64,000 nt of DNA from Prorocentrum cordatum. Taxonomy: Eukaryota. Each line of letters begins with the position of its first letter. The stretch's first letter is position 1. The notes under the pieces were generated by a model, which saw nothing but the letters and a program-made list of their open reading frames with translations, made no database searches and had not been told where the DNA came from. Positions 1-37,952 of this stretch are shown here, in pieces. The position numbers and the translations under genes are program-made. Where the stretch lies: NCBI GenBank assembly GCA_963575745.1, contig CAUYUJ010000268.1, positions 1-64,000 of the forward strand, read 5' to 3'.

Positions 1-218
1 CTGGCTCATCCGCGATCCTTTTCCACGTCCTCCTCGCCCTCCGCCCCCTGCCCATCGCCTCTCAGTCTGCGACTCGACCTGTTCTAGAGTAGGCAAGGGC
101 CGTTCTAATTCTACCAGCGATTCGAGCAGTCTCATGGGCGCCCGTTAGGATTTGGATGTCATGGTCAGCAACCCCCCCCCCCTCATCCCGACAGAATACG
201 CACGGGCGAGCGTTGGTC

Positions 219-1422
219 CTTGACCGAGTCAACGTGCCAAAAGATGGAGCACGATGGGTTCTCCAAAAGCACTTTCACGTTGCGGGCGTCCGCGAGTACC
301 ATCAGCCATGACCTGGGCAATCCGCTGTCTGAGGTGTTTGGGCGCCCACGCTGCCGTTCTCCCTCTCAACCGATCTCTGTCCACATCCGCCTCCTGCCCG
401 CTTCCTCTCACTCTCACCCTCACCGTCTTCCGTGCCGCCCCCCCCCCCGCGCTGCCCTCTTCCCCCCTCTTACACGCAGCCCGCCTATTCCGATCCGACC
501 CGAACGCTTCCGAGAGACCGAGTCTACACAGTCGGTCTGTGTCGCATCGCTGCGTGAGTAGGTGGGCCGCGCGTTTTACAATGCCTGCCGTCGCCTAGGG
601 TCCGCGCAACTAGTTGCGCCTAAGCATGCGCGAGTCATGCTGCATACCGCTGTTGCGAATCCCCGCCCGCCCCCCCGACGCTATCACTCCAGGCCCTCTA
701 AGGGTCGCACACAGCTTCGGCCACAAAGTTGGCCTCGAGCACGTCCCGCCGATCTTCATCACCACGGATGTGGCTGCCCCTGTCCCGTTTCGCGCGGAAG
801 ACTGCGATGTTCAACCACGAGGAACATTCGGGCTCGAGAACGAGCGAGCCGCCAGGCTTGACCTGTAGTACTCCCAGTGCGCAAGTAAGGAGCCCAAGCA
901 AGGTGCACACGTCCTCGGATTCATGTGACGTACGCCTAGGACGAACGAAAGGAAGCGACGACGTCTCCCCTATAGAGCAGACAACGTTGAACGCGACTTG
1001 GACGCAGACTTGGACGCAGTTTGGGCGCACCCAGGTTCGCGTCCAAATCACCGCCAAGTCGCGCCCAGCGCGATCTGCGTCGAGGGCGCACAAGAGAGGG
1101 GTACACGTGGGGTGGGGAGGCTGGGCACAAGCGTTGCACCCCCACGCGGCCTGTCAAATCCTCGAGCTTTGAAGCCCCTGGCGATCAAGGCTCGCGCAAT
1201 GCCACCAGTTCCACAGAACACTTCAAAACAGTCTAAGTATTGATCGATTACAACGGGCCCTTCCCCCTTCAGCCACACAGCAACCTCATTTACAGCCGCA
1301 TCCATCATGTATTCAGAATTGTCACTAGTCAGACGTCGCTCCCCTTCGTTCGGCCACCGCTGGGAAACTATAGCAACGAGCCAACTCGGTGCGCCGTGGC
1401 CCAAACCCAGCCTCTCGGCCAT
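219..1422 (-). CDS. Multi-exon C5-cytosine DNA methyltransferase-like gene, 3'-incomplete (exons ~1422-1151, 935-711, 312-219)
   Basis: Manual splicing gives one open frame: ..LDCFEVFCGTGGIARALIARGFKARGFDR/RTSHESED..GGSLVLEPECSSW..EANFVAEAV/SWLMVLADARNVKVLLENPSCSIFWH. This has motif I (FxGxGG), the motif IV Cys (PxC) and motif VI (ENP). Introns are 1150-936 (GC-AG) and 710-313 (GT-AG); the next donor at 218 is GA. Start codon uncertain. Confidence 0.72.
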
Positions 1423-3879
1423 GCCTCTGGACAGGCGGTGCGTAAATGTATTTAGAATAGCCAAGGGCGCCAAGCACGCGGGCATGGTGGTGCAGGGTCC
1501 GAGAGAACATGGCTCGGTGACACCGCTGGGCCAGATTGCGCACGGTGAGGTTCAGAGACTCGTCTGTGAAGGTCGAATATAGACGAGGAGGGCCAAATTC
1601 CCATATCCTGTTCGGAAAATGACTACGTGCATCGAGTGATCAGCTGCTCTTGCATCATCCCCGATGTCTGACATCAGCCCATTAAGAGCCCCGACATCCC
1701 CCACTTGGAGAACATTTTGGGGAAGTGAGGGACGTGGACTGAGCGCAAGAGCAGCCGATCGTCGATGCCTCGGTGGGCGGAATTCTCACAACCTGAAACG
1801 TTGTCATGGATGAGGGACGAGTGAGTGGGAGGGACGAGACTAACATGTAATGCCGATTCACCAGATAAGAATAATAACGATGCGAATCATCGTCACCACC
1901 GACGATGGTGACGATGACTCGGAGGATTTACCATATGATGTTGGACGAAGAGTTCGGAGGACGAGTTGGAGCAAAGAGAAGGGTGAGGAGGAGGAGCTGA
2001 AGGAGTGGGGAGGGCTCCTGTGGGTGAGATGGCAGAACAAATGCCACTTTGGGGTAAGCCTCACCTTCGCATGTTGCGCGTGCACAACGACCCGCGCTGC
2101 AGCATCCAAAGCACACGTGTACTCGGAGTGGTTCGGTCGTGCGTCCATCTCCTTCGTCACCCTGAACCACGCCACCAACGCGTCAACACTCATCATCAGA
2201 GATCCAGCACACGGCACACGGTCGAAATATGTGTCCAATAGATATTTACAAAACGGGATTAGCATCGACATCTCCGCTCCTTTGATTTTCATGGGGCAGC
2301 CTGGGTGGGGTTCCCCCCTCCTCCTTTGTATTGTGAGCCCACCCCCGATCATGCCTGATGTGAGTCTGCCCATTCTTTGTTCATGAGGTATGTTGTTGAT
2401 GTCGTACCATGCATGTAACTCTGATTCCATATGTTTCACCCGTTGTGGAATAGCCCGCTTGCGGGCCACATTCGCTTCTAGAACCCTCCACAATACTGCC
2501 GAACCTAGCCGTTGCGCCACACCTAAATGGACAGTATGGAGCACGTCCAGGGCAAGTGTGCTTGCGGGGCTTGACTTCAACATGTTAGAGAACAATGGGC
2601 TTCGATGCGTCACTGGGTCCAATGCCGCTCCTTTAGCGTCTCTTTGAACCCGCCAGAACACAATGTCAAAAGGCACCGGCTGGCTGTACACCAATCGGAT
2701 GTCTGGAAGCTCAGGCGAGGGGAGCACCGCATCATTAAGCATTAAAGGAATCCCCGCCACCTCTTTGACTACAACGAGCCCACCAACCTTTTTTGACTCT
2801 GGGTCTGCAAAGCGCAACATGCCTAGTACCTGTGCCAGCTGTTCCTGATAATCAATACGAATGGTGTGCTCGCAGCGGTCACGTGCTTCTGAATACGATT
2901 ATGGATCTCTGTCTGGGAACGGAAGGCCCTCGGAGCTCAGGAAACCAGGGTATGTCACGTGCAAAGAATCCAGCGGCGCCGAGCAACACGGACAAGGATT
3001 GAAAATGCTGTTCCACCCTGACAGCCCGAACGTTTTCTGGAACTCAGCCCAATCCCCCTTGATGTACAACAATACTGCCCTGTACCCGAGGTCCCTGCCT
3101 GCCCGCCCATCCTCTGCCCAGCATGTCCCGTCGTACTGTGCATCAGGAGCCCGCCCTCTCACCATGGCACTGACCTGCCACTCCACGACACGCATAAACG
3201 CGCACAGCGTACAGTGCCCTGCACACCCGCAAGCACATTTGTCGAGCGAGCGTAAGTACCCAATATAGTGACGCTTGTGTGTAAGCAGATTGATGATACT
3301 AACGTTCAGGACGCTGTCCGTGCGCCCCGCATGAAGAGGCGAATACCGCACTGAGTCTGCGTATAATGCTATGGGAACGGGCCACTTTCCAGTTTCATTC
3401 AGACATTGCTGCACGTGGGCGTGATTTTGATAGCTGCGGGTCAGCATGGCAGAGTTTAAATCATCGGCGCCATATTCCAAAGTTTGTCGGCACACATCAT
3501 CGTGCAACACTTCTTCTGATATTGATTCGAACACAAGTTGCACGTCTGTGCTTGCCTTTGTCAAATGAGCTCCCCCGCGGACTTGCATCGGGATGGTTAT
3601 TTTCATCATGGCACCGACTGCAGGCATACGTTTATCTACATGATCTTTATATTTGCCAGACTGTTTACCAGGAGCCATCCCCCACCAATCCCAATGAGCC
3701 CCTCCAATCCCAGCCCTGGCGCAAAAATAACATCAAACTGCAAGGTCTTTAGCCGTCATTTGTCTGCCCGAAACGTAAATCCCAACTAAGTGGTGAAATA
3801 AATCAGATCCCGCCAAACGTTGCTGCGCACCATCGGTGCTGGGCTTCCACATGCGACGGGGTAATCTTTTGGGGGCCAT
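1325..3879 (-). pseudogene. CMC/EnSpm(CACTA)-like DDE transposase with two in-frame stops and one GA-AG intron (2017-1608)
   Basis: ORFs 3733-4071, 2899-3678 and 1858-2820 share one frame, separated by TGA (3733-3735) and TAA (2899-2901). Motifs are IALYADSV, IKGDWAE..CPCC, LDVLHTVHLGV, LTPKWHLFCHL and, after splicing, RIWEFGPPRLYSTFTDESLN. This is the D-D-(CxxC)-DxxH-KxHxxxH-E order of CMC-type transposases. Confidence 0.75.
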
Positions 3880-4625
3880 GATGCGTTCAATATGGGGTTG
3901 GGTAAGCTCTGAAACCTGCTTGCGCCAAAACTGCGGACTTGATGCCGTGACCACAGCCCTTTCCCTCAGCATCACCCCGCAGACAAGAGCACCAGGCACG
4001 TGCGCGGCGCCAAATGCACCTGCACATCGCGCGCGTGCCCGGTACCAAATGCACCAGCACGTTCGCTTCAAACTGACGATCTTGCGATGCCGTGCGATCT
4101 TGGAAGGAGCGCAGCGTTACACCCCACCCGCCCCGCGCACATCACGCGTGTCCTATGTGTCCTCGATGTCATGTGATCTCTGTATGTTCATTGCACGCGC
4201 GGAAGTGTGTTGTTGCGCTCATTGGCATTCGAGCGTGCACGATTATGGCATGATTCATCACTCTCCTGATGCGCGCGCACATTATACTCCAGACTGTGTC
4301 ATGGTCCTCTCGGCCATGCAGCTCGATCCTCGAGCGTTCGTCTGCCAGACGGGCATCGCAGAGAAAAAATGTAGCTGTCGCGCAGCGCGATTGGATTCAC
4401 CCTCAGCGCTGTCACACAGAAAAGCAGCAACTCAGCTCACTATTCTGTCCCACGACTCGGTCGCTGAGGCCAGGACTGTTGCACCCCGAGCCCTAGACTA
4501 AAGTCGCTGCGTGTGCCACGACATGCAGGCTGCTGGGTTGGCTTCTTGTATAGTTCCTCCCGCCTTTGTACTACATGTGCTAATAATTTTATGTGCCGTG
4601 TTTTTTTTGTTTTCTCTTTTTTTTT

Positions 4626-4630
<5 letters not shown>

Positions 4631-4710
<80 letters not shown>

Positions 4711-4716
4711 GTCTCG

Positions 4717-4770
<54 letters not shown>

Positions 4771-4788
4771 CTCTATATATATATATAT
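4631..4788. repeat. (TC)n followed by (TA)n microsatellite
   Basis: Directly visible; a second TC/TA tract lies at ~6118-6185. Confidence 0.95.
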
Positions 4789-4794
4789 GTAATT

Positions 4795-5946
4795 GAAGAG
4801 CGTTTTTCCACCGCTGCTGGCGAAACCGGGGGGTCACTGCCGGTTCGAACCCCTCCCCCCCCCCCCCCCCCTCCGGAAAACCGGGGGGGGTCACTACCGG
4901 TTCGACCCCTTCCCCCCCCCCCCCCCCTTCGCTCATCATGAAAAGGGGGGGGGGTCACTACCGGTTCGAACCCTCCCCCCCCCCCCCAGCTCATCATGAA
5001 AAGGGGGGGGGTCACTACCGGTTCGAACCCCACCCCCCCCTCGAAAACCGAGTGGGGGTGCGGACAGAGGTGGGGACGGTGTTGGTGGGACAGTGGTGAG
5101 GGGACAGCGGGACAGTGGTGGGGACAGTGGGACAGTGGGACAGTAGAGGGCCGGTAGTGGTGGGGACAGTGGGGGGGACAATGGTGGGAACAGGGGGGAC
5201 AGTGCAGTGTTGTGAGGTGGTGGTGGGGACAGTGGTGCTGGGACATGGGATGAGGTGGAACATTGGACAGTGAGGGTACAATGTGTGGGGACAGGGTGAG
5301 GCGGTGGCGAGAACGCGGTGGACAATGGGAGCAGAGATACGTGGGCGTGGTGGGACAGTGGGGGACAGTGGTTGATCGTGGGACAGCGGAGGAGTCAGTG
5401 GGACAGTGGGTACAGTGGGGATAGTCGGGCAGTGGTTGGGGCCGTGGAGACAGTGGGGAGAGTGGAACCGTGGTGGGAACAGTTCTGGGGACAGCGGGGA
5501 CAGTGCGACAGTGGTGGGGGCACTGGTGGGACAGTAGGGGCGGTGGTGGAACCAGTGGGGACAGTGGTGGTGAGGACAGGTGCTGGGAACACCAGTGGGG
5601 GATGTGATGCGGACGTGGTGGACGAGAGTCGTTTGCTGGCGTGAGCAGGCCCGGGGGGGGGGGGGGGGAGGTGGGGGGGTTCGAACCGTATGACTCCTCC
5701 GGTTTCCGGATCCGGAGGGGGTGGAGGGGTTTCGAACCCCAGTGACCCCTCCCCGTTTTCGACGGAGGGTGGGGGTGGAGGGGTTAGGGGAGAGGGAGGG
5801 TTTTGCCGGGGGAGAGAGGGGGGGGGGAGGGGGAAGGTCCAGCAGGGGAGGGGGGATTTTCGGAGGGCGGGGGGGGGCGACCCCCGGGTTCCGGAGGAAA
5901 AGGTGGCAATTTTCCACAGTAAAGCGGCGGTGGATCACGCTCTCTC
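4795..5946. mobile_element. Non-autonomous TIR element (MITE-like, ~1.15 kb) with subterminal repeats and a G-rich minisatellite core
   Basis: Left end GAAGAGCGTTTTTCCACCGCTGCT versus right-end reverse complement GAGAGAGCGTGATCCACCGCCGCT. Four GGGGGGTCACTRCCGGTTCGA units on the left, inverted degenerate copies at ~5675-5750, a GTGGGACAGTG-type core, TA-rich flanks. Confidence 0.65.
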
Positions 5947-6113
5947 ATATATATGTATATACATGAAACGTTCATACATGCGACCATCTGTCTACATAGA
6001 CACACGCTGATGTGTATACGACCATCTGGCGACACACGCGGTGTATGCATTGGCATCCCTTTGTAGTGTTATGGGTTCCTCTCTGCTTGTCTATCTGTCT
6101 GTCTGTCAGGATC

Positions 6114-6160
<47 letters not shown>

Positions 6161-6361
6161 CTCTATGTGTATATATATATATATCGTTACACTACATACT
6201 TGAGCATGTACGTGCGCATGTTGAAGGCATATGCGTGGTGCGCCTGTCTCTCATGTGCCCGCGACAATGCCTACACGTCGTGCTTAGTTTCTATCATATC
6301 CGTCTCTACTTACTGTTAGTGTCACAGCTGTACATGCGCCGCAGCAGGCCATCATCTTAAT

Positions 6362-7365
6362 TATTGACGCTTCGCGTACCCCCACCAGCCCATCCAGAAA
6401 CGATCAGCAGGGGACTTGGCGAGTCAGGGGCGGCAGGACGCATGTAGTCGCGCAGCAGTCTTCGAGGAAACAAGGATCACACATAGCTTCCCGCATTGAA
6501 GTTTACTATGGAAATCAGTACAAGCTACGATTGTGCTTCGATGAGTGGTGATGAGTGTTTCGATGACTCGTAATGGCTGATGCACTGATTTATATCTGAA
6601 ACTCGCGTGCGTTCCGAAACTTGGAGGCATATTTGGGCTCTCTTGGGACTCTCTTGGGCCCCTCTTGGGGCCTCCTGGGGCTCTTGCTTGGCGCTCTCTT
6701 GAGGTCCTCTTAGGGCCTTCGTGGGGCTTCGTGGTGCTCTATTGGTGCGTCTTGGGGCCCTCTTGGGGCTCTTTGGGGGTCTGGGAGGCCTCTAGGAGCC
6801 GTCTTCGGCCGCATATATCAAAAGAGGGCTGGTCTCAATTCCCATCGCCCCTCGGAGACACAAACATGCCGTCTTGGGCCCCTGTTGGGCCGCTCTCGGA
6901 TCGCTTTTGGGCGCTCTTGGGGCAATCTTGGGTGGGGCCCTCTTGGGCGTCTCTGGGAGCTTTCTTGGGCTATCGTGGGTCCATATTGACGCCTGAAGAG
7001 CCCATCTGAAGCGAAAAGGCGCCAATGCCAAAAACATGGGTTTCCCATAGGTTTTGGAGCCATGTTGGCCTCGGAGGGCATGCGAAACCGTCTTGGAGCA
7101 GTCTTGGAGCCTCTTGGATGCGTGTCTGAGGCTATCTTGAGCCAAGTTGATGAATGTTGGGCCATCTTGGTGGCCATCTTGGGCTCTCTGAGGCTCTCTT
7201 GGGGCCATCTGGAGCCCAAAATGACCCTATGCCACATCGCTGCCCTCGCCGTCCAGAGGCTGGGGGGGCGGGGGGGAGGGGGTGGGTAAACCTCCCCTCG
7301 AGCAGGAAGAGGTTGGCAAAAGAAACACGCTAGACCACCTCCGCCCAGAGGGCTGGTGAGATTTA
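6362..7365 (+). repeat. ~1-kb dispersed repeat, left arm of an inverted pair
   Basis: Similar along its length to the reverse complement of 8555-9546 (e.g. CCATCCAGAAACGATCAGCAGGGG, GCTAGACCACCTCCGCCCAGAGGG); rich in CTCTTGGG-type subrepeats. Confidence 0.85.
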
Positions 7366-7459
7366 CCGATCCACATCTGCCCAGTCGCGCGCTCACCCTC
7401 TCCATTCCTGATTCTTCCTGCTGCATCGCCGCCGGAGCTCAAAATCAAGCGCTGCCTGG

Positions 7460-7742
7460 GCTTGGACGGGACTTGGACGGGACTTGGACGGGACTTGGAC
7501 GGTACTTGGACGGTACTTGGACGGTACTTGGACGGTACTTGGATGGTATTTGGATGGTACTTGGATGGTACTTGGACGGTACTTGGACGGTACTTGGACG
7601 GGGAGATGGGGGTTCTATGTATTTTACAGGGTTTCGTCAACTTGGACGGGACTTGGACGGTACTTGGACGGTAGCCGTTTTGGATGGGTTTTGGATGGTA
7701 CTTGGACGCGACTTGGACGGTACTTGGACGGTGTTTGGATGC
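7460..7742. repeat. 11-bp tandem repeat (GGTACTTGGAC)n
   Basis: Roughly 20 near-identical units in two blocks, without spacers. Confidence 0.95.
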
Positions 7743-8554
7743 GTGTTTGCTGAGTTTTTTCGATGACGGAGAGGGTTCACGGGTCAAAACGTATGATTTT
7801 TGCATTTCTTCCCCCCCAAATCGTGCCAGCACCAGAAAATCTCGCTACAGCCATGCTCGCGCACGAATCACTGAGCGACCTTACGCCGCTTGGGCACTGA
7901 CTTCTCTGGAACAGGGTTGCGAGCCTGCTTCTGGCGGAAAATCTTATTGATCTCATTCCCCATGTTGTTCAGCGGCCCAGTGATGGCCTGCCGATCCCGT
8001 TTCTCCGCGCTACGTCTACCCGATTGCTAGGTTCATTGGTCTGACTGCTCGTTCGCATCGAACATACATGCTGATCCGTGGCAGGTGCATCATACATCAA
8101 ACAGAACACTCGAAAGCACCAATATGTGGAGCCAGCCGAGTCGAGGCGAGCTAAAGTTGGGGTAGGCATAGCGGAGGCAAGGGCTGGCAATGGGCGATGG
8201 GTGAGGATGGGGCATACGGGCAGGGTTGCGTCGGGGGGACGGGATGCCAGAGATGAAGTTGGGTGGCAATAGTCGATGAGGCGCACGGGGAGGAACATGG
8301 CACGACCCACCCCCGCACCGTGGTAAGCTGCTTGATCTTCACCTCGAACTCGGCCTCGCCGACTCTCTTCTGCAGGAGGGACACGTTGGCGCTGGTCATC
8401 GCCTCCCTGTAGAACGTCTCCTTGTCCATCTCCGTCTTTACATCCCCCCGCAGATGCGGCCCGCGCCAGTCCCACCCCCCTCCTCGCTGCCGTCCCTGCG
8501 TCGAAGCTTAGGTTGAGAACGAGTGTCCAAATGTCAGAGCTAGGGTCGAGAACG

Positions 8555-9546
8555 AATCCCACCAGCCCTCTGGGCGGAGGTGGTCTAGCGTGTTTCGTTT
8601 GCCAACCTCTCCCTGCTCGGGGGGGGGGTACCCCCCCCCTCCCAGCCTCTGGACGGCGAGGGCAGCGATGTGTCAGAGGGTCCTCGTGGGCTCCAGATGG
8701 CCCCACGAGAGCCTCAGAGAGCCCAAGATGGTCTCCAAGATGGCCCAACATCATACCTCAAGCTGGCTCAGGGTAGCCTCCGACACGCATCCAATATGCT
8801 CTACGACGGCTCCAAGACGGTTTCAAGTGCCCTCCGAGCCCTCCAAGGACCACTCCAAGGGGCCAACATGATTCCAACACTGAGGAAACAATGTGTTTGG
8901 CTTTGGTGCCGTTTCGCGTCCGACGTGCTCTTCAGGCGTCAAGATGGGCCCACGATGGCCGAAAGGGAGTTCCCAGAGACGCCCAAGAGGGCACCAAGAG
9001 CGCCCAGCAGCGCTCCGAGAGCGACCCAACAGAGGCCCAAGACGGCAGGTGTGTGTCTCCGAGGGGGGGCGATGTGAATTGAGACCAGCCTTGTTTGATC
9101 TATGCGGCCTAAGACGGCTTCTAGAGGCCTCCCAGCCCCCCCAAAGAGCCCCAAGAGGGCCTTAAGACGCCCCAAGAAGCCCCACCAATGCCCTAAGAGG
9201 ACCTCAAGAGAGCACCAAGAAAGAGCACCGGGAAGCCCCAAGAGGGGCCCAAGAGAGTACCAAGAGAGCCCCACGATGCCTCCAAGTTTCGGAACGCACA
9301 CGAGTTTAAGATACAAATCAGTGCAAGAGCCATTACGAGTCATCGAAACACCCATCACCCCTCATCGAATCACCATCGTAGATTGCACCGATGTCCATCT
9401 TAAACTTCAATGCGGGAAGCCATGTGTGACACTTGTTTTTTCCCGAAGACTGCTGCGCGACTGCATGCGTCATGCCGCTCCTGATTCACCAACTCCCCTG
9501 CTGATCGTTTCTGGATGGGCCAGTTGGGACACGCGAAGCGTCAATC
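8555..9546 (-). repeat. ~1-kb dispersed repeat, right arm of an inverted pair
   Basis: Reverse complement of 6362-7365, with many substitutions. Confidence 0.85.
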
Positions 9547-10342
9547 ATTTCCGATTGCCTGATGCCCATCTAACAGATCGCGGGGATATGAGTGCGAACG
9601 ATGGAGACGATGAGCAAGAAGAGGGCGAGGAAATAGGGCGTGGGAGAGGAGCGACCAGGATGGGACATCTGACATGTCAAGGTGGTGTTGTTATGATGAG
9701 GACGTGGGCACGATGCAGTGAGGGAAATATAACGATGGCAAGGGCGAGATAATTTGCTGCCTAGGGGGACCATCGCCGCGCGCACCTGAGGGCACATCGC
9801 CCCCCCGCCTTCGTTACTTAAACCACCCTGACGCCGAATGTGTTTCATTTAGTGGCGCTCCGAGATGGATCAGTCCCTGTTTGACGGGCTCACGACTAGA
9901 TCGAGAGGGTTACGCATGAGGTCTCAGATTGATGATGCTGTATATGCACCGGTTCGCTGCGATATCTAGAGGTTGACATGATGACGCGCATGATTTCGGT
10001 TATGGGACATGTGGTGATGGATGCGCTAACGGTGAACGATATGCTTGATCGTGTGGATGGTAATGGCGGCTACAAGGCGAGCGGACATCACGAGGAGGAG
10101 AGGTTAAAGGACGTGGATGCGGAGGATCGATAATGCTGACATCTGCTATGGTCGGTGCCGACGGCGGAAATAGCCGTTCTCCTGCGCACAGCTCGCTGTG
10201 TCTGTTGAGTGCATACCGCGAAAACACGCGACTGGCTGTCGTGCATTGCGATGTGCAATGCAAGCGTAAAATATCAATGTGTGGCGTGCGGCGCGCGGTG
10301 GCATCTCGGCCACACTAGAACATGCCCACAGTCTCCACCGCG

Positions 10343-12427
10343 TCAAACAGCCCGCCGCCCGAGCCGAAAATCTGCCATCGGATCGGTGTTGGCCACACTT
10401 GATCCTGCAGCGCCACTGCCGCCAACGGATGGCGGAGGGTCGGGTGAAGCAGAGCGGCTCGCTCTGACTTTCTTGGCGGGCGGCGAGCACGGATCCACTG
10501 GCGCTGGACGCACCTGCTGCGGGCCGACCTTCGCGGGGGGGGACTTGACGGAGCGGCGCCTCTTGACGCGGTCTGGTGGCGAACCGGCCGTGGCTGGCGG
10601 CCTAGCTGGTGGCGAGCTCGCCGTTGGAGGCGCTGGAAGGCGCTCAGGAGTGGCACGATTCGCTGGCGCCTGCACGTCCGTGTCCAATGATGCTGCAGGC
10701 CTCTTTTTGAATGCGCCATCCTTGGCGCGAGCCTTGGCGCGCGCCTTGGCGCCCGCCGTGGCGCCCACCGCGGCGCGCTTACCAGCGCGCATCTTGGTGG
10801 GCGCCTTCTCCCCGCCCTCCTCGCCAGACTCCTTGGCGGGCTTCCTGCCAGCACTGGGCGCCGCCTTCGCATCAGCATCACTCTCGACTGCATCTGCCTC
10901 GTCCTCCTCGCCCTCCTCCTCCTCCTCCTCCTCATCGCCAGCGGCCTCTCCCTCCTCGCAGCTCTGGTTGCCGTCGTCGGCGGGCTCCGCGTCATCCTGC
11001 GCCTCCTCATCGCACATCTTCATTGGTGGCGCCTTGGCAGCTGGTCGTTTCGATGCAGATGGCTTCTTCATCGGCACCTCGAGCGTCTGCCTGTGCGCTT
11101 GGATGTAGTTGCGCTTGACAATATCGATGTCCTGCTTGCTCGTCGTCCCAGCTGCCAACTTTTTTCATCTCGCCGAGCAGCATCTCCTCGTGGCCTGTCA
11201 TGCCGTCTTGAACTTGGAAATTCACAACCATTTTCTTTTTGGTGCCATCCTTGAACATCTGCCAGATCCCCATCTCTGGGCTGCCCTTCCTGGACCACTT
11301 GCTGAGCTGCAGCTTGTCGTTCTTGCGCTCGATCTCCAACAAGATGCCGCTCCCCTTCCTCTGCTTGAGGTCGCCGTTGTCCGCCCAGCCACGCATGCAC
11401 TCGTAGGTGAGCCCAGGGATCGCGTGCTCCGTGCCGTCCTTGAACTTTGCGACGACCTCATGGTGGCCAGGAGCGTCTCCTGTATCCACGAGCGGCAGGC
11501 TGTACTCTGGAGCGGGGTTGGACTTGCTCGCGCCCAGGCGGTAGACGGCCTCAAGAGGCCGAAGCTACAGAGATGGAAGTGGCGTGCCAAGAGGGCAACT
11601 GCCTCGCAGCCCTTCTAGCGCGCCATTTCCATCCGAGTCGGGTTGCACCCGCTGTCCTTATTGACCAGGTCGATCTTGTATTCGTACGACTTCTCCTCAA
11701 CAGGCTACCACATGGGCGATATGACAAAGTCGGTTCAGTGAGGGTGGTTCCATGGCCCCAGGGATTGGATGAGTGGCCTGGCAGGAGGGGGCATCCTGGG
11801 CCCATAGGGCCCACCCTCATTGATCCTCTTTCCCCCCATCGCCCATTTAAGGTAATGCCTATTGATTGCTCGTTGGCTCCGCATTCTCGAGGTCCTTCCA
11901 CTGCTGGACGAACGGCATGACCCACGAGGCGCTCTCTGGACAATCATGTGTCCTACTTCGGGGAATCCCGCCTCGATCCTAACACATTTGCGCACGCGGG
12001 GCGCGCGCCCTGAACTGCGCGCGCGCCAGCACGTGCGCAAATGCGTTAGGATTGAAGCAAGCTTCGCCGAAGTCCTGCGATGCTTGTTCTTGATCACTCC
12101 CTGCTGCACGTGCCGCATCATCGAGCGAAACATTCTCGACACTCTCTCCGCCCAGCTGGTCTCCTGGTCCGCGAGGTTCCAGCCCGAGCCGTTAGCCTCC
12201 AGCACTTGCTGGAACAGCTCTGCCCCCGTCGATTGGGAGATGCTGGTCTGGGGGAACATGGCCTGGCGCGCCTCGAGGACCAGCTCCTGCCACTCGGTGA
12301 TCGCTGCTGTGTCGCACTCGGCCTCGAGGTCGTCAGCGTACGAGAACTCGTCGGCATCTGAGAAGTGCTTCGTCAGCACCTCAAGCAAACGAGTCGTGTC
12401 CTCGCATCGCAGGCGCTTGGCCGGCAT
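10343..12427 (-). pseudogene. Multi-exon gene of unknown function (gene B) with an acidic tract and basic KRPAA-type C-terminal region; 1-nt frameshift in an A-run at ~11160
   Basis: ATG 12427 MPAKRL..HVQQGVIKNKHR/THDCPESASWVMPFVQQWK/..EKSYEYKIDLVNK/AVYRLGASK..EMKK, then a frame change to LAAGTTSK..KRPAAK. GA-AG introns at 12074-11953 and 11656-11550 preserve the frame. 3' end uncertain. Confidence 0.55.
11953..12074 (-). mobile_element. Palindromic introner-like intron (122 bp, GA-AG)
   Basis: Begins GACTTCGG and ends CCGAAGTAG; internal arms ATCCTAACRCATTTGCGCACG; AGGAC direct repeat at both junctions. Confidence 0.7.
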
Positions 12428-32723: not shown

Positions 32724-32919
32724 TGTGTATGGAACCCGTGTAATACCCTCATATATACTCCTTATCCTTACCTCTCCCGCACCTGGCCGTTTGGGCTCAG
32801 GTACTGAGTTGGAGCGATCGTACCTTGATCGCTTGGGAGGGAAAGATATCCATCTATCCCTCCATCTCTCTACCAACGGATCAGGGGTTCTGTACTCTTG
32901 TACTTCAACCCCATACACA
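32724..32919 (+). repeat. 5' LTR (196 bp)
   Basis: TGTGTATGG...CCATACACA (9-bp terminal inverted repeat); four substitutions relative to the 3' LTR. Confidence 0.97.
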
Positions 32920-32931
32920 GGTTATCAGCCC
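32920..32931 (+). promoter_or_regulatory. Primer-binding site of the tRNA-half type (GGTTATCAGCCC)
   Basis: Abuts the 5' LTR. It lacks the TGG start complementary to tRNA CCA and instead resembles the GGTTATGRGCCC PBS of copia/Ty5, which pairs with the initiator tRNA-Met anticodon arm. Confidence 0.75.
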
Positions 32932-32983
32932 TTTAACGCTCACCTTCACCGACTCGCCCGCGGTGACCTTGCATGCGAGCCCA

Positions 32984-35900
32984 ATGGAGCCGCTTCGGCG
33001 CATGCGCCGTAAGGGTTCCATTGGGGCTTCGCGTCCAAGCTCTCCCACGGTGCGACGGCTCGGTGACGAGTTGGAGAGCATTAATGCGGACTGTGTTGGT
33101 GTCCCCGATACCCCCCCCCCCCCCAGCTCCCGAGGACCCGAGGCGCGTCTAGCTGCTGAACTTCGCCGCAGCGCCGCCCGCGGGGGGACAGGAGAAGGAG
33201 TAGGAACAGGAAGGAAGGAGTTTCACACGCCGACCTTTGATCCTCCCTCCCCTTCCCCGTCGGGAGCAATCCCAACCGCGTCAGGCGAAAGCCTTACCGG
33301 TCTCGATACTCCAGGGCGCTTCCGCGCTAACCGCCGATGGACCTCAGGTGCTGGAACCCCCAGCCCTGCGACCGTCCCTGTGGCGGAGCACGTAGCTACC
33401 TTCGAGGAACTCAGTAGACCAGTGTCGGCACAGCCACAGACGCGGTACCCCAAGGTATCATCGGATGAGACATCACACACACATGGTCCGAGTCGCAGCT
33501 CGTCCGCGCGCAACCGCCGTGGAGCCCCAGGCCCATACGGCGAAAGCAGGTCGAGCCCGCGCACTGCCTCTCAGAGGCCATGCACTCCCCGCGACAGGGG
33601 ACACAGGGAAGCTGACGCTCCCCACCTCTCCATCTCAGACGACCAGCTGGCGGAGACGTCCGCCGCAGGTGACATAGCTGAGCTCAGAGACCAGGTTGAA
33701 ACCTTCGTGTCCAGCCAATACTCTGGACTACTACAGAGCGTTCAGACGAACGCCACCGATACTGCAGCCATACGCCGCGATCTTGACGGCGCCTTAGGGA
33801 TCATCGATTCCAGGATCGCCGAAGATCGACGCATCATAGGAGAACTGCAGTACCAGGTTGATCGTGAGGTGTCACACTCAGGTGAACGAACGGCGATGGT
33901 CGAGAACCTGCGCAACTATCTCGCGCAGATGGAGCAACAACTTGTGATCGTACGCGACACAGGCATTTCTGCGGTCAGGATTTTACACGATGAGATCCAC
34001 GACCAGCTCCGTAACCGACCAACCCCAACCGAGGCCACAGACCTCGGCGACGTTCAGTCTCAGATCAATGATCTTCGATCTTACCTAGACCACACTACGG
34101 CGACGCTTCGTACCGAAGCACACACAAACTCGTCGAACCTGATCGACATGTTGCAGCGTACTGAGAGAGTCATCACTCAAAGGCTTGATGCGACCAACGC
34201 TGTCGTGCAGCCACTCGCTAACCGGATCTCTGACATAGAGCAGCGTTTCCCTGGTGTACAGGACGCCCTGGCAGAGTTGCGTGTCGGACGAGCCCAGACT
34301 GATCAGCTGGATTCTCCTCCCACGGTTTACGATTTCGCCCGCCTCACTGACAGGTTGCAGGAGGTTGAGAAGGCGGCGGACCACACGCAGTTAGAGCTCT
34401 CCCAGGTTATTCATGAAAGAGATACTGAGAAGGTACGTGTTGAGAGTTATCTCGCACGACTGGAAAGCGAGGTGGAGGCACAAAGCGCCCGTCTCCGAGC
34501 ATGCGAGCAACGACTTGATCGGTATTCCCAACGGTCTCGGGATACTGATGAGTATACACGCCAAAAGGTGGGTCAAATACAAGAAGACATGACGAGCTGG
34601 ACGAATCAGCTGATCGACCACACTAACGACACCAACATTCACCTTCGACCTGCAGCCGACCCGCACAGGCCGACGGCAGCGTCCGCCGAAGCACCACAAG
34701 CTTCAGCAGGACAACAACGACGTACATCTCCAGGAGCAGCCTCCGCGGCAGTTTCTGCACAGACACGTCATGTGTCTCCTGTGCGCACAGAACCAACCAT
34801 CGACGGTGCACCGATACCCTCACAGCCAGTGTCTGCGGTGTCGGTCCATACTACGACGCCTATCAAGGAGTCAGACACCGTCCGTGTACCTGTCTTGCCT
34901 AAGATCACGCAGCTGCTGGAGTGGCAGCAAAGAGTGCGGAAGAACTTTGGGGCCGCCTCAGGGCGACCATCCAAAGCATACGCCTTCCCACGCGTGGCAG
35001 AACAGCCCGAATGTACATTCGAGGATTTACAAGACAGTGGAGACTTTGAGAGCATCGATTGCAAACTCGCAACTGCTCTGAGCGACATCTTATCCTCAGA
35101 CTTACGCTACCAAATCAGGCTCATCGAGACCAAAGAGCACACAGCAGGACGCATGCTCAAAGGACGCCAGATATACTGGCATATCCTACAGTCCTACAAA
35201 GTGACAGACGTCGACGACGACCTGCACGATTTCGAGCGCCTTAACGAACTGAGGATGAGAGACGAAGATTTGCAACGTTTCATTACCGATTGGGACGCCT
35301 TACTCTTGGAATGCCGAGAAGTACCCGATCCAAAGATATTGGAATCGCTATTCCGCACACAGATTCGTAGACATGCATGGATGAAACAAGACATGTACGA
35401 GTACCAGCGCATGAAGATGAGCGACCCGAATCGTACCTACGGTTGGCTTCGACAGCGTGTCCTGGACATACTGGAGATTAAACAATTGGAGAAGAATCAA
35501 AACAAGCTACGGTACGAACACGAGACACGATCTCAGGTCAACGCGTGCGTTGCATGGAAGAAAGGCAATTGTCGCAATGGTGAACGGTGCAAGGCTTTAC
35601 ATACATATTCCAGGGATTGGAAGAACAACAAATCTTCCAGAACATCAACGGCTGGTGGCAACCCCCGCCGTAGTATGTCCACTCCTGCGAATCACAAGAA
35701 GCCAGCATCAAGGCCGTTCTGCTTCGATTTTGCCAAGCGCAACACATGTACCAGAGGTGATAAGTGCAACTACCCGCACGTCGCACAGTGCAAGGATTTC
35801 GCACAGAACAAGTGCACAAAAGGCGACAAATGCAAATACGCTCATCTCGCACCTGGTGCAAAGACTCCTGAACGAAGCCCGAGTCGACCACGGACTTCCA

Positions 35901-37951
35901 GCCAGGACAGCCGTGGCCGATCGCCATCCCGCGGATCAGGAAGCCAACGGTCTTCACAACGCGGGGGGTTTCGCTACGCAAGCGATTCACGACAGGGACG
36001 TGGCAACCGACGCCAATACGACCGATCCCGTTCGACATCCAGGAGGTCCCAAGACTCTCGCAGCCAATCGAGAAGTCGTTACGACAGATCTTCGAGATCT
36101 ACCTCCCGAGGACGAGACAATCGTGGCGGCGGACGCGGCAGTCCACGCGGCCGTGATAGATCATATGGCAGTGACAAAGGACGTGGCAAGCGGTATCCGA
36201 GCCGCGGATCGTCCCGTGGTTCACCCAACACTAGAGCACGTTCTCCTGCCAACTTTAGACGTTCACGTCATTCAGACCGCAGTTACGTCATCCGTGACAA
36301 GACCCGCATGGCCAACACTAAGGCCACAGCGACAGCTACCAAGACACGTCGTCGGATACGCTTCGACGTACGCAACGTGGACTACTACTTCCATACCAGA
36401 TCTGGCAGAGCCAGACTGGACAGATGGAAAGAGCTGCCGAATGAGGGCGACATCGTCAAAGTACCAGATCCATTACCACAAAAATGGTGGGATGATAGTG
36501 CAGAAGCCTTACGAGAATGTCAAAAAGAGGCACAACTATGGTACGACGAACTGTACGACTACCGACACAACAAAGAGTCGGTGGCCACACCAACTGCGAT
36601 CCGAAAGCATGACGACACTGTCAAGCAGTCATCAAAGACTGCCCAGACGACAACAACGACAATGCAAGTCGACACTCCACGTTCGACTGCAGCATTGACA
36701 AGGTCTTGGGTTCTTGATAGTGGCTCTGCCCATCATATTCAGGGAAAACATGAACTTACGCAGACTGAGTCGAATCGCATATCTATTCGCGAAGAGCATA
36801 TTCTGGAAACTGCAAATGGTGATCGTACCGTCAACGAGCACTACGACATACGGCTACCCGAGGTTGGACTGCATAGTTCAGCCCTTGCTTTACCAGACTG
36901 CCCATCATTACTATCAGTTGGAAAATTGATTGAGGTTGATGGCTTTCGACAGCTTTGGGATCCTGAGCTGGGCTACATGCTTCAGGATCCGGGGGGCCAA
37001 TGGTATAAGATTCCAGTCAACAATCGAGTGCCAGAGTTACGACTCGACGACTTAACACGGATACCACCACCACGTTTATGCACTTCGTCAGCACCCCGCC
37101 GTCGTCAGCGAAAGCGTTCATCCGCCCGCTGTAACGACACTTGTTGGCGCTGCAAAACTACAGAGCAACCAACCACTGCAGACGAGCTACGACCCCACAT
37201 AGGGACCTGCCCCAAGAGACCACATGTCGGAGAGGGAGGAGGAGCACGGACCATCACGGTCGAAGAATCTCCCGACACACGCACAGACGAGCCCAGCGTG
37301 GACACAACCACCGACTCGCCTACGTCTCAGATGCAGTGTTCTCCTCCACAATGCGGGGGGTTCGATATAGCTCAAGCAGACAACGACATACCGACAGAGA
37401 CATCCACACGGACGCATCCAGACAACGATCGAGTTCTGCCCAACAGACAAAAGAAACCGATCGACCCGATGCATTACATGACTCACAGCCCAAAACATCC
37501 CGACTGTGAGATCTGTTCTCGTACGATGGCACAGAATGCCCCGTGTAGACGACAGCACAAACCACATCCACCGGCAGACCCCACCGAAGAGGATAACGCC
37601 TACGAGGCTTTTGTCCCGAAGAAGTTCGGTGAGGCTCTAACTGCCGACCATATCGTACTGGCCAAAGACGATGCCGCGGACAAACATGGCGACAAATATG
37701 CACTCGTTGTCCTTGACAGATATACTGGCATCTTCATGGCCTACCCAGCGCTACACAAAGACGCAGCTACTACAAAGGCATCCTTTCAACAGTTCATCGC
37801 CGCGAACGATGAGGTGAAGCATATCTACACAGACAACTCTGGAGAGCTTCAGAAAGCTTGCCGCCAACTGGGATGGAGACACGACACGAGTACGCCACAT
37901 CGTCCACAGACAAATGGATTGATTGAGCGCGTTGTCAAAATTGTCATTCCT
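32984..37951 (+). CDS. gag-pol: Copia polyprotein part 1: coiled-coil Gag, three CCCH zinc fingers, RS-rich tract, aspartic protease, integrase HHCC and DDE core
   Basis: First ATG after the PBS. CCCH fingers at 35546-35845, WVLDSGSAHH at 36707, HYMTHSPKHPDCEIC at 37472, LTADH..IYTDNSGE..NGLIER. The coding frame switches at ~37952 (one extra T); unshifted, the ORF stops at 38101. Confidence 0.9.
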
Positions 37952-37952
37952 T

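What the first reader, a model, noticed from the sequence alone, without database searches (positions are those of the whole stretch)
219..3879. Spliced C5-DNA-methyltransferase-like gene coupled to a CMC/EnSpm-type transposase
Seen: the ORF track misses this gene because it is split by GC-AG and GT-AG introns. Spliced, it shows FxGxGG, PECSSW and ENP in the canonical C5-MTase order. Its first exon abuts or overlaps the last transposase exon on the same strand. Known: dinoflagellate retrotransposons have captured cytosine methyltransferases. Inference: this is a cut-and-paste DNA transposon carrying its own methyltransferase, which could modify itself or its targets. I do not know this arrangement as well described.
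Basis: partly seen in the sequence, partly recalled or inferred. Interest (0 to 1): 0.75.

Follow-up and report, generated by a model that had tools for sequence, protein, structure and literature searches.

The report
Transposon carrying a methyltransferase-like second gene
A decayed copy of a cut-and-paste jumping gene from a marine alga has, overlapping the end of its transposase gene, a second split gene that looks like a small virus-type DNA cytosine methyltransferase, a pairing so far reported only for transposons living in giant viruses.

Summary
The observation largely holds. On the minus strand lies a two-exon DDE transposase gene (3879-2018, 1607-1328). It has no Pfam family, but its relatives carry the D, D, C(2)C, H(3)H, E signature of the CACTA/Mirage/Chapaev/Transib (CMCT) group. 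Its last exon overlaps the start (1422) of a second, split gene.

Exons 1 and 2 of that gene are conserved in at least 12 fragments from elsewhere. Direct searches (Pfam, PDB, a canonical C5 profile) saw only the SAM-binding motif. A profile-profile comparison then matched the family to small (~220 aa) phage and archaeal-virus PF00145 proteins whose own motifs are SPxC and ENP. The result was 95.9%, P 5e-9, with motifs I, IV and VI in register.

A second, diverged copy keeps the same transposase-end/gene-start spacing. No trace was found in 23 distant transposase relatives, only five of which keep enough flank to test, and one is a repeat-bounded transposase-only element.

This copy is dead: it has two in-frame stops, and a 99%-identical public version reads sense codons at both. 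The gene runs off the window, so motifs VIII-X, the shared ends and all splice junctions are unverified. Verdict: new variant of a known kind, moderately interesting.

The parts
2018..3879 (-). Transposase exon 1 in one frame. Candidate catalytic D at 3357-3355 (LYAD) and D at 3054-3052 (KGDWAEF); CxxC at 2994-2983; HxxxH at 2043-2029. In-frame stops: TGA at 3735-3733 and TAA at 2901-2899.
   Evidence: One tblastn segment to P0001, residues 46-658, at 51% identity. Family motif table. Reads of run X1 show C for A at 2901 and 3735, giving GAA and GGA.
1608..2017 (-). Transposase intron as placed by homology (GA..AG, with ACAGGA repeated at both ends). An in-frame canonical alternative is a GT..AG intron at 1861-1623, which would add about 52 residues that no relative has.
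   Evidence: Relatives read H.T.R + .W..G.P without a break. Sequence read. No RNA evidence.
1325..1607 (-). Last transposase exon, in a different frame from exon 1, with the candidate catalytic E at 1561-1559 (TDESLN). The stop is at 1327-1325. In the X1 version the stop is already at 1375-1373.
   Evidence: BLASTP to L001 residues 436-496 (E 3e-12) and to L007 (E 6e-6). Variant at 1373. The piece 1517-1594 is held by several diverged contigs in 4 runs.
1151..1422 (-). Second gene, exon 1: ATG at 1422, a conserved helical N-terminal region (G.P.W...), SAM-binding motif I FCGTGG at 1218-1201, and motif II ..GFD. It overlaps the transposase's last exon by 95 nt.
   Evidence: 12 homologous fragments. 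Invariant P, W, W, E, C, G, G, D in 10 sequences. The family profile's top PDB hits are SAM methyltransferases, E 0.005-0.02. On the subfamily matrix, motif I is the best of 93,340 six-frame positions in the window.
936..1150 (-). Intron 1 of the second gene (GC..AG as placed: GACAG|GC ... CCTAG|G).
   Evidence: 10 of 12 fragments end or diverge right after GFDR. P0004 reads on into a similar intron. No RNA evidence.
711..935 (-). Second gene, exon 2: PECSSW at 832-815 (motif IV-like, P-x-C) followed by GDEDRRDVLEANF.
   Evidence: 42% identity to P0005, E 4e-12. In hhalign, LEPECSSW aligns with SPDCTTYS of the small C5 subfamily.
313..710 (-). Intron 2 of the second gene (GT..AG as placed).
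   Evidence: Frame change between the conserved exon 2 and the ENP frame. No GC2 dip here. No RNA evidence.
204..312 (-). Candidate exon 3: ...NVKVLLENPSCSIFW, with ENP at 263-255 (motif VI-like). The end is uncertain (a GTGCGT donor-like site lies at 203-198). The gene continues beyond the window's first base.
   Evidence: ENP aligns with the subfamily's ENP. 3 of 200 shuffles of this exon reach the full score. GC2 is 0.33 against GC3 0.76. No homologue was found.
3996..4060 (.). Two direct copies of a 30-nt unit, 35 nt apart, 117-181 nt upstream of the transposase ATG. They may be subterminal repeats; the element's 5' end was not located.
   Evidence: By analogy only with the repeated units in the inverted arms of L003.

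Best explanation
This is one decayed copy of a two-gene cut-and-paste DNA transposon of a marine eukaryotic alga.

Gene 1 is a DDE transposase of a lineage that has no Pfam model. Its conserved residues follow the CACTA/Mirage/Chapaev/Transib order: D, D, C(2)C, H(3)H, E. By analogy with that group it would bind repeats near the element's ends and cut and paste the element (inferred).

Gene 2 starts inside the last transposase exon in another frame and is split by introns. It encodes a helical N-terminal region followed by a SAM-dependent methyltransferase domain. The nearest relatives of that domain are small (~220 aa) C5-cytosine-methylase-like proteins of phages and archaeal viruses, whose motifs are SPxC and ENP.

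The likeliest role of gene 2 is a DNA cytosine methyltransferase that travels with the element and marks the element's own or nearby DNA. It could do this either to tune transposition or to blunt host silencing. That role is inferred; nothing here tests it.

Shown: both genes, their overlap, the family signature, the profile match, and a second copy with the same layout. Inferred: catalytic activity, the substrate, that both genes lie inside one pair of ends, and the splice junctions.

The window's copy cannot make transposase, because it has two premature stops. A 99%-identical version in public reads has sense codons at both places.
For: Transposase:
- P0001 (662 aa) matches at E 5e-78 and aligns in one frame at 51% identity.
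- 23 metagenome relatives were found.
- Motif table over the rows that cover each block: Y.D 20 of 20, KGDWAEF 22 of 22, CxxC 22 of 22, PK.HxxxH 12 of 14, E of DE.LN 11 of 14.
- This is the signature quoted for the CMCT clade in PMC12730594 (passages read).
- In relative L003, 43-nt inverted arms (86% complementary) lie 3,481 nt apart around the gene.
- The last exon is found at 1607-1328.

Second gene:
- 12 fragments at E<=1e-3, five of them carrying one organism label, so it is a multi-copy family.
- The family profile against PDB gives three SAM methyltransferases on top (E 0.0048, 0.0055, 0.019), and 6 of the 10 listed chains are methyltransferases.
- tblastn of P0005 against 2.3 Gb of phage DNA gives 4 hits, 3 of them (from two phages; one is filed under two accessions) on a 'C-5 cytosine-specific DNA methylase I' (E 3-7).
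- That protein passes Pfam's PF00145 threshold (30.4 against 22 bits). So do 4 of the 5 further proteins scanned, three of them small members.
- BLASTP of P0005 against it gives E 1e-6 pairwise, with WASPECSTW over WMSPDCTTY.
- All 6 small members have ENP at motif VI.
- An HMM of 7 members scores P0005 at 17.8 bits and the spliced window model at 13.7 bits; 0 of 1000 shuffles reach either score.
- An HMM without the Bacillus phages still scores P0005 at 9.9 bits (0 of 1000 shuffles).
- hhalign of the family against the subfamily gives 95.9%, P 5.1e-9 over 119 columns, with motifs I, IV and VI in register. A reversed template gives 1.6%, P 0.03.
- hhalign against an amino-methyltransferase-type control gives P 9.5e-5.

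Linkage:
- A diverged contig, seen in runs X1 and X4 (two studies), matches 1392-1428 and 1517-1594 with the same 88-nt gap.
- Its loose ends, read by hand in the two frames, give V-P-D-W-L-A-A-R-V-R, which equals residues 11-20 of fragment P0008, and R-I-S-E-F where the window has R-I-W-E-F.
Against: - No Pfam, NCBIfam or PHROG model reaches its threshold on any exon or on P0005, and phmmer against PDB finds nothing.
- A profile of 8 canonical C5 methylases aligns motif I only. It scores 0.7 bits, and 1 of 500 shuffles scores higher. hhalign against that set gives 13%.
- On ungapped matrices the window's own PECSSW and ENP sites score -3.4 each. 455 of the window's 93,340 six-frame positions reach the ENP site's score.
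- With the Bacillus phages left out, the window's spliced model scores only 1.7 bits, and 8 of 1000 shuffles reach that.
- The phage subfamily was picked after a database search whose own E-values were 3-8. The later P-values are therefore not corrected for that choice.
- The half of the enzyme after motif VI is not in the window.
- The AlphaFold model of P0005 was poor (pLDDT 57) and showed no strands.
- None of the 23 distant transposase relatives has the second gene by tblastn (best E 0.079) or by HMM (best E 0.08, antisense). Only L002, L003, L007, L008 and L012 keep about 680-1,080 nt beyond the gene, so most loci were not testable. L003's repeat-bounded unit has room for the transposase only.
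- Differences between the window and the X1 version are 3 synonymous to 8 non-synonymous in transposase exon 1, and 4 to 6 in the second gene. That shows no sign of purifying selection.
Confidence: 0.58

Rival explanations
1. The second gene is a real SAM-dependent methyltransferase carried with the transposase, but it is not a DNA cytosine-C5 enzyme. It could methylate another base, RNA or a protein, or it could be a catalytically dead DNA-binding accessory factor like TnpA of En/Spm elements.
For: - The firm sequence signal is motif I-II, which all class I methyltransferases share.
- An amino-methyltransferase-type viral ORF (NPPF) also aligns over 59 columns at P 9.5e-5.
- The motif IV core has Glu, not Pro, before the Cys.
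- The canonical C5 profile does not see motifs IV or VI.
Against: - The best match by four orders of magnitude is the PF00145 small subfamily, which itself has P-x-C and ENP.
- P0005's motif IV scores 17.5 bits on that subfamily's matrix, above all 93,340 six-frame positions of the window.
- The nearest Pfam-named clusters in the protein atlas are PF00145 (scores 0.86 and 0.83; a lead only).
Confidence: 0.2
2. The two genes are neighbours but not one mobile unit. Either a transposase gene landed beside, or was duplicated together with, a member of a multi-copy host or viral-derived methyltransferase family, or the pair spread by segmental duplication.
For: - No terminal repeats or target duplication were seen around the pair, and the 3' side is off the window.
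- Only one further copy with the same layout was seen.
- None of the 23 distant relatives shows the second gene, though only 5 were testable, and L003 is a transposase-only unit.
Against: - The start of gene 2 lies inside the last transposase exon, and the spacing is kept to the base in a copy that is under 80% identical elsewhere.
- Gene 2 is multi-copy and diverged like a transposon family: 33-59% identity among fragments, five under one organism label.
- Two-gene layouts on one strand are usual in CACTA-type elements (recalled).
Confidence: 0.17
3. There is no second gene. The motifs are chance strings in decayed transposon sequence downstream of a dead transposase.
For: - ENP is three residues long, and PEC is not the canonical PC.
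- The window's own motif IV and VI sites are not above chance on matrices.
- This copy is decaying.
Against: - Exon 1 has 12 homologues down to 33% identity, with invariant residues and a conserved start.
- Exon 2 is conserved in P0005.
- The profile-profile match is P 3.7e-8 even without exon 3.
Confidence: 0.05

Closest known systems
Mariner-1_OLpv and Mariner-2_PGv: Tc1/mariner transposons in giant algal viruses that encode a transposase, an endonuclease and a methyltransferase (Bao and Jurka 2013, PMC3627910; passages read)
   Same: A cut-and-paste DNA transposon carries its own DNA methyltransferase gene; in Mariner-1_OLpv this is a C5 methylase domain. The setting is marine algae and their viruses.
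   Different: The transposase superfamily differs (mariner there, CMCT-like here). Those elements also carry a restriction-type endonuclease and sit in virus genomes without introns. Here the element lies in intron-bearing, apparently cellular DNA, no endonuclease gene was seen, and the methylase is a small, far more divergent type.
Fungal DNA transposons that carry TET/JBP dioxygenase genes, including EnSpm, Plavaka and ESTA of the CMCT clade (PMC12730594; passages read)
   Same: CMCT-type transposases are paired with a gene for an enzyme that acts on cytosine modification. The same D, D, C(2)C, H(3-4)H, E signature is present.
   Different: The passenger there removes or oxidises 5mC; here it would write it. 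The host there is a fungus. Termini (5'-CA..TG-3') and 2-5 bp duplications were defined there and could not be tested here.
DNMT-bearing retrotransposons of Symbiodinium and charophytes (de Mendoza et al. 2018, PMC5890265; abstract, passages and reference list read)
   Same: A mobile element has taken a cytosine methyltransferase on board. Self-methylation has been proposed as its use.
   Different: Those are retrotransposons with a eukaryotic Dnmt3-type domain inside the polyprotein, giving clear PF00145 hits. Here it is a DNA transposon with a separate gene of a small phage-like type.
Small C5-cytosine-methylase-like proteins of phages and archaeal viruses: Bacillus phage BCP8-2 'methylase I', BC-VP, an Inoviridae genome, and Haloferax tailed virus 1 gp60 (records read)
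   Same: Motif I, a motif IV with a residue between Pro and Cys (SPDC or SPLC; SPPC in two members), motif VI as ENP, and the same spacing. hhalign gives 95.9% over 119 columns.
   Different: Identity is only about 20-26%. The viral proteins lack the ~55-residue helical N-terminal region, have no introns, and pass Pfam's PF00145 threshold, which the alga's family does not. In the Bacillus phages this protein is one half of a split enzyme, with an HNH gene between the halves.
En/Spm (CACTA) elements of plants, with two products (TnpD transposase and TnpA) from one strand (recalled, not from a call)
   Same: A transposase plus a second protein encoded downstream on the same strand; subterminal repeats.
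   Different: TnpA is a DNA-binding protein, not a methyltransferase. The plant transposases hit Pfam Transposase_21, which this family does not.

Membership tests
C5 cytosine DNA methyltransferase (Pfam PF00145) | Significant match to the family model | tested here: not met
   There is no PF00145 hit at E<=10 on the exon translations or on P0005. The link is indirect only: hhalign gives 95.9%, P 5.1e-9 to a subfamily of which 5 of 6 small members pass the PF00145 threshold.
C5 cytosine DNA methyltransferase (Pfam PF00145) | Motif I F.G.G followed by an acidic residue at the end of strand 2 | tested here: met
   FCGTGG lies at 1218-1201 and ..GFD follows 18 residues later. The site scores 7.6 bits on the canonical matrix (6 of 95,323 window positions reach it). 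It scores 12.5 bits on the subfamily matrix, the best of 93,340 positions.
C5 cytosine DNA methyltransferase (Pfam PF00145) | Motif IV with the catalytic Pro-Cys | tested here: inconclusive
   The window has P-E-C, not P-C, and the canonical matrix does not pick it. Four of the 6 small PF00145 members also have a residue between P and C (SPDC, SPLC). P0005's site scores 17.5 bits on their matrix, but the window's own site scores -3.4.
C5 cytosine DNA methyltransferase (Pfam PF00145) | Motif VI E-N-V with the catalytic Glu | tested here: inconclusive
   ENP at 263-255 lies in an exon with no homologue. All 6 small members have ENP, and it aligns in register. The increment from this exon is reached by 3 of 200 shuffles. 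The matrix score is -3.4.
C5 cytosine DNA methyltransferase (Pfam PF00145) | Motifs VIII-X and the target recognition region | not testable with these tools
   The gene runs off the first base of the window. No genome is held. No longer homologue was found. The subfamily HMM finds nothing more in window 1-4200.
C5 cytosine DNA methyltransferase (Pfam PF00145) | Class I methyltransferase fold | tested here: inconclusive
   The AlphaFold2 model of P0005, made with 10 sequences, has mean pLDDT 56.9 and no strands. Foldseek found no match at E<=0.001.
Class I SAM-dependent methyltransferases (superfamily) | Sequence profile matching the SAM-binding N-terminal half of solved methyltransferases | tested here: met
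   The profile of 10 fragments against PDB puts 7zgt, 9gdj and 9icz on top (E 0.0048, 0.0055, 0.019), and 6 of the 10 listed chains are methyltransferases. The sub-threshold NCBIfam hits are also methyltransferases.
CMC / CMCT clade of DDE transposases (CACTA/EnSpm, Mirage, Chapaev, Transib and allies) | [quoted passage not shown] | tested here: met
   Alignment A7, counting the rows that cover each block: first D 20 of 20, KGDWAEF 22 of 22, CxxC 22 of 22, HxxxH 12 of 14, E of DE.LN 11 of 14. The window has all five.
CMC / CMCT clade of DDE transposases (CACTA/EnSpm, Mirage, Chapaev, Transib and allies) | Sequence similarity to known members or their Pfam models | tested here: not met
   There is no Pfam family at E<=0.09 for the window pieces, P0001 or 11 relatives. 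The profile of 36 rows finds no RAG1, Transib or other transposase in PDB. No known member's sequence was on hand for a direct comparison.
CMC / CMCT clade of DDE transposases (CACTA/EnSpm, Mirage, Chapaev, Transib and allies) | Termini 5'-CA..TG-3' and 2-5 bp target site duplications | not testable with these tools
   The 3' end lies beyond the window and the 5' end was not located. Relative L003 has 43-nt inverted arms built of repeated units, but its exact termini were not resolved.
CMC / CMCT clade of DDE transposases (CACTA/EnSpm, Mirage, Chapaev, Transib and allies) | RNase H-like catalytic fold | not tested

The most novel reading that the evidence does not exclude
An autonomous CMCT-type cut-and-paste transposon of a cellular marine alga has taken up a phage-type mini cytosine-C5 methyltransferase as a second gene that overlaps its transposase. 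The enzyme is active and methylates the element's own ends or its landing sites, so the transposon writes its own epigenetic mark. This would be the DNA-transposon counterpart of the DNMT retrotransposons, and the mirror image of the fungal TET-carrying transposons.
Probability: 0.25. Interest if true: 0.72.

Novelty: new variant of a known kind. Interest (0 to 1): 0.55.

Why it matters
Mobile elements that carry enzymes for DNA modification show that transposons can act on the host's silencing system instead of only suffering it. [quoted passage not shown]

My three literature searches did not find a CMCT-type DNA transposon in a cellular genome with a virus-like cytosine methylase. These searches do not cover Repbase reports or subscription journals.

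If the pairing is real, it gives a small natural enzyme and a defined target (the element itself) on which to test self-methylation. It also points to gene flow from viruses into algal transposons.

Separately, the transposase family has no Pfam model, is present in 23 metagenome contigs, and deserves a name and a place in transposon classification.

Tried and rejected
- RNA evidence: no RNA holder was listed for the stretch, so no splice junction could be checked.
- Whole genome: none is held, and metagenome loci are not in held genomes.
- Direct family searches found nothing usable:
  - Pfam on six window frames, P0001, P0005 and other fragments.
  - PHROGs and NCBIfam gave only sub-threshold methyltransferase hits.
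  - phmmer of P0005 against PDB gave only ribosomal L18 at E 0.35 or worse.
- Longer or fused homologues: none for P0005, and none for exon 2 alone.
- Scan with the second-gene alignment: metagenome contigs gave 193 pattern matches and no relative. Viral contigs gave one 25-residue motif I match in an NPPF-type methylase ORF.
- Transposase alignment in viral contigs: none.
- P0010 in genome contigs: one match on the strand opposite to the only ORF there, so spurious.
- Canonical C5 tests saw motif I only: HMM of Dcm plus 7 phage enzymes, hhalign and ungapped matrices.
- Structure: the P0005 model has pLDDT 57, and its Foldseek rows are all at E>6.
- Protein atlas on exon 2 alone: scores 0.77-0.78, below the level at which a hit is even a lead.
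- Dinoflagellate spliced-leader relic in the window: 0 matches with up to 2 mismatches.
- Terminal inverted repeats around the pair within window 1-12000: none that bracket it.
- Earlier notes of this scan: nothing by place or by sequence, and nothing for the first word set.
- Literature: nothing for the strain code printed with the fragments. A search for work on the Haloferax virus methylase gave no obviously relevant title (listing only).
- Considered and rejected: that the in-frame stops mark introns. P0001 aligns straight across both, and reads show sense codons there.


Full report
**What is in the sequence.** Everything relevant lies on the minus strand of window 1-4200.

- One frame is open from an ATG at 3879 down to about 2014, apart from two in-frame stops: TGA at 3735-3733 and TAA at 2901-2899.
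- A 662-aa protein from a public assembly (P0001) matched the larger piece at E 4.8e-78. It aligns to 3852-2017 as one tblastn segment at 51% identity, straight across both stops.
- The stops are therefore mutations, not intron marks.
- Laying contigs of four public runs on the stretch showed a version about 99% identical in run X1 (24 differences in 2,630 nt). It reads C for A at 2901 and at 3735. These turn TAA into GAA, the residue P0001 has there, and TGA into GGA.
- The window's copy is thus a dead copy, or an erroneous assembly, of a gene that is open at those two places elsewhere.
- No second copy lies in the 64-kb window.

**The transposase and its family.**

- No Pfam family is found for the window pieces, for P0001 or for 11 relatives.
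- A scan of metagenome contigs with the alignment of P0001 and the window gave 23 loci at 24-36% identity. Several have intact frames of 540-850 residues.
- In the alignment of 36 rows (A7) I counted the rows that cover each block: Y.D 20 of 20, KGDWAEF 22 of 22, CxxC 22 of 22, D.LH..LG throughout, PK.HxxxH 12 of 14, and the E of DE.LN 11 of 14. The other three rows look misaligned or frameshifted.
- The order D, D, C(2)C, H(3)H, E is the signature that PMC12730594 quotes for EnSpm/CACTA, Mirage, Chapaev, Transib and allies, its 'CMCT' clade (passages read).
It is not supported by any direct similarity to a known member: the family profile finds no transposase or RAG1 in PDB, and I had no Repbase sequences.
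- Relative L003 has 43-nt inverted arms (86% complementary), built of repeated units and 3,481 nt apart, around the gene. This fits a terminal-repeat transposon.

**The last transposase exon.**

- P0001 and the window's long frame stop being alike right after H.T.R, whereas longer relatives go on with .W..GNP..Y.TF.DE.LN.
- That block is in the window in another frame, at 1607-1328..RIWEFGPPRLYSTFTDESLN... BLASTP to L001 gives E 3e-12 and to L007 E 6e-6.
- So the transposase has an intron.
  - Placed by homology it is 2017-1608, reading GA..AG, with ACAGGA repeated at both borders.
  - An in-frame canonical alternative (GT..AG, 1861-1623) would add about 52 residues that no relative has.
  - I cannot choose between them without RNA.
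- Homology-placed introns in L003 also read AG|GA..AG|G.
- GC and GA donors are the habit of dinoflagellates (PMC11453091, passage read). Yet the fragments nearest to the window carry a prasinophyte label. I leave that conflict open.

**The second gene.**

- The frame of the last transposase exon stays open to 1325, or to 1373 in the X1 version.
- Inside it, in another frame, an ATG at 1422 opens exon 1 of the second gene (1422-1151).
- A search of 1.84 billion representative proteins with this frame gave 12 hits at E<=1e-3.
  - All are short fragments.
  - 10 of them end or diverge right after GFDR.
  - Most begin with a Met a few residues before a conserved G.P.W.
  - Five carry one EukProt organism label. 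The rest come from ENA, NCBI or Logan assemblies.
- One fragment, P0005 (153 aa), continues into a sequence that matches window exon 2 (935-711) at 42% identity, E 4e-12.
- Exons 1 and 2 therefore belong to one conserved, multi-copy protein family. The intron after GFDR is real in most copies. In the window it reads GC..AG as placed.
- Exon 3 (312 to about 204, holding ENP) has no homologue. Its support is a coding-like dip in GC at second codon positions (0.33, against 0.53-0.70 in the introns) and the test described below.

**Is it a methyltransferase, and of which kind?** The first round of tests was mostly negative.

- No Pfam hit, even at E<=10, and nothing by phmmer in PDB.
- The AlphaFold model was poor (pLDDT 57).
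- A profile of 8 canonical C5 enzymes (E. coli Dcm and 7 phage enzymes) aligned motif I only. It scored 0.7 bits, and 1 of 500 shuffles scored higher. hhalign gave 13%.
- Ungapped matrices from those enzymes did not pick PECSSW or ENP.
- What did come through was the SAM-binding half. The profile of 10 fragments put three solved SAM methyltransferases on top in PDB (E 0.005-0.02), and 6 of the 10 listed chains are methyltransferases. The weak NCBIfam and PHROG hits were methyltransferases too. The nearest Pfam-named atlas clusters were PF00145 at 0.86 and 0.83, which are leads only.

**The turn.**

- tblastn of P0005 against 2.3 Gb of phage DNA gave only 4 hits, at E 3-8. Three of the four (from two phages, one of them filed under two accessions) lie on a Bacillus phage 'C-5 cytosine-specific DNA methylase I'.
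- That 224-aa protein passes Pfam's PF00145 threshold (30.4 against 22 bits, profile positions 1-113 of 324).
- It aligns with P0005 from motif I to beyond motif IV, with WASPECSTW over WMSPDCTTY (E 1e-6 pairwise). It has FIENPRGG where canonical enzymes have ENV.
- I fetched its relatives: two more phages, a PinkBerry-associated phage, an Inoviridae genome, Haloferax tailed virus 1 and one canonical enzyme.
  - Five of the six small ones pass the PF00145 threshold.
  - All six have ENP at motif VI.
  - Four of the six have a residue between Pro and Cys in motif IV.

**Tests against that subfamily.**

| Test | Result |
|---|---|
| HMM of 7 members, P0005 | 17.8 bits; 0 of 1000 shuffles reach it |
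| HMM of 7 members, spliced window model | 13.7 bits; 0 of 1000 shuffles reach it |
| HMM without the Bacillus phages, P0005 | 9.9 bits; 0 of 1000 |
| HMM without the Bacillus phages, window model | 1.7 bits; 8 of 1000 |
| hhalign, family (window model as master) vs subfamily | 95.9%, P 5.1e-9, 119 columns; motifs I, IV (PEC on PDC) and VI (ENP on ENP) in register |
| hhalign, P0005 as master | 91.8%, P 7.5e-7 |
| hhalign, reversed template | 1.6%, P 0.03 |
| hhalign, without exon 3 | 95.0%, P 3.7e-8 |
| hhalign, exon 3 shuffled | 3 of 200 reach the full score |
| hhalign, amino-methyltransferase-type viral ORF (control) | P 9.5e-5 |
| hhalign, canonical C5 set | P 0.002 |

Caveats on these tests:

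- The subfamily was chosen after a database search whose own E-values were not significant.
- I built the spliced model myself.
- On ungapped matrices the window's own motif IV and VI sites score -3.4, although P0005's motif IV scores 17.5 bits, above every one of the 93,340 six-frame positions of the window.

I put the odds at about 85% that the family is a class I methyltransferase. I put them at about 65-70% that it belongs with the small C5-type enzymes. The half after motif VI is off the window. No activity can be claimed.

**Are the two genes one unit?**

For:

- The second gene starts inside the last transposase exon.
- A diverged contig present in runs X1 and X4 (two studies) matches 1392-1428 and 1517-1594 with exactly the same 88-nt gap.
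- Its loose ends, translated by hand in the two frames, read V-P-D-W-L-A-A-R-V-R, which is residues 11-20 of fragment P0008. They also read R-I-S-E-F where the window has R-I-W-E-F.
- A second, old copy therefore keeps the same layout.

Against:

- None of the 23 distant relatives shows the second gene, by tblastn with 15 queries (best E 0.079) or by HMM on six frames (best E 0.08, antisense).
- Only five loci (L002, L003, L007, L008, L012) keep about 680-1,080 nt beyond the gene.
- L003's repeat-bounded unit holds the transposase alone.

The passenger, if it is one, was therefore taken up within one lineage. Shared ends were not seen, because the 3' side is beyond the window. Upstream of the ATG there are only two 30-nt direct repeats, at 3996-4060.

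Differences between the window and the X1 version show no purifying selection: 3 synonymous to 8 non-synonymous in transposase exon 1, and 4 to 6 in the second gene.

**Comparison with what is known.**

- Bao and Jurka (PMC3627910, passages read) described mariner elements in giant algal viruses that encode a transposase, an endonuclease and a methyltransferase. One has a clear C5 domain. They wrote that a methyltransferase in a transposon had not been reported before.
- de Mendoza et al. (PMC5890265) described DNMT retrotransposons and cite that paper for DNA transposons in viruses.
- PMC12730594 describes fungal DNA transposons, CMCT lineages among them, that carry TET/JBP genes.
- My searches found no report of a CMCT-type transposon in a cellular genome with a cytosine methylase. 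Repbase reports and subscription journals were not searched.

I therefore file this as a new variant of a known kind. The evidence is moderate, and much remains to be checked outside the window.

Noticed in passing
window 32744-49763 (+): Three abutting stop-free frames of 1,785, 3,270 and 676 residues. Pfam finds integrase core (E 1.3e-6), RVT_2 reverse transcriptase (1.2e-5), a CCCH zinc finger (4e-10) and a weak Tpt1/KptA match (1.5e-4). This looks like a very large Ty1/copia-like retroelement with about 17 kb of coding sequence and much unassigned protein.
   Followed up: partly
window 55565-56692 (+) and 61684-62901 (+): Two long frames about 6 kb apart share identical 14-residue pieces (..AEPECTS.. 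at 56573-56614 and 62554-62595) and near-identical pieces about 85 nt upstream. This is a duplicated unit with no Pfam family. tblastn shows no relation to the second gene.
   Followed up: no
window 2017-1608, 1150-936; L003 about 4170-4460: Introns placed by homology start with GA or GC right after AG and end with AG followed by G, with 4-8 bases repeated at both borders. That is the dinoflagellate habit (PMC11453091). Yet the nearest labelled protein fragments carry a prasinophyte label. Unexplained.
   Followed up: partly
window 4620-4790, 4830-5040 and 5650-5760: A long (CT)n microsatellite is followed by several copies of a unit 'GGTCACTACCGGTTCGAACC + poly-C', mirrored about 700-900 nt further on as poly-G + GGTTCGAACCG.
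   Followed up: no
window 6359-6779 and 9138-9549: A large inverted repeat in several segments (301 nt at 86%, 112 nt at 88%, and nested inner arms up to 7363/8555) encloses about 1.2-2.4 kb. No Pfam family was found in the frames tested there.
   Followed up: no
L003 1440-1482 and 4964-5006; L002: A metagenome relative of the transposase sits between 43-nt inverted arms made of repeated GTGTGGCATCA-like units. It has at least two introns in its 3' part. The same element occurs in a second metagenome contig, L002.
   Followed up: partly
L034 (Bacillus phage BCP8-2) 1-1881: The phage's C5 methylase is annotated as two genes, 'II' and 'I', with an HNH endonuclease gene between them. In an Inoviridae genome and in Haloferax tailed virus 1, the 218-aa 'I'-type protein stands alone.
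   Followed up: no
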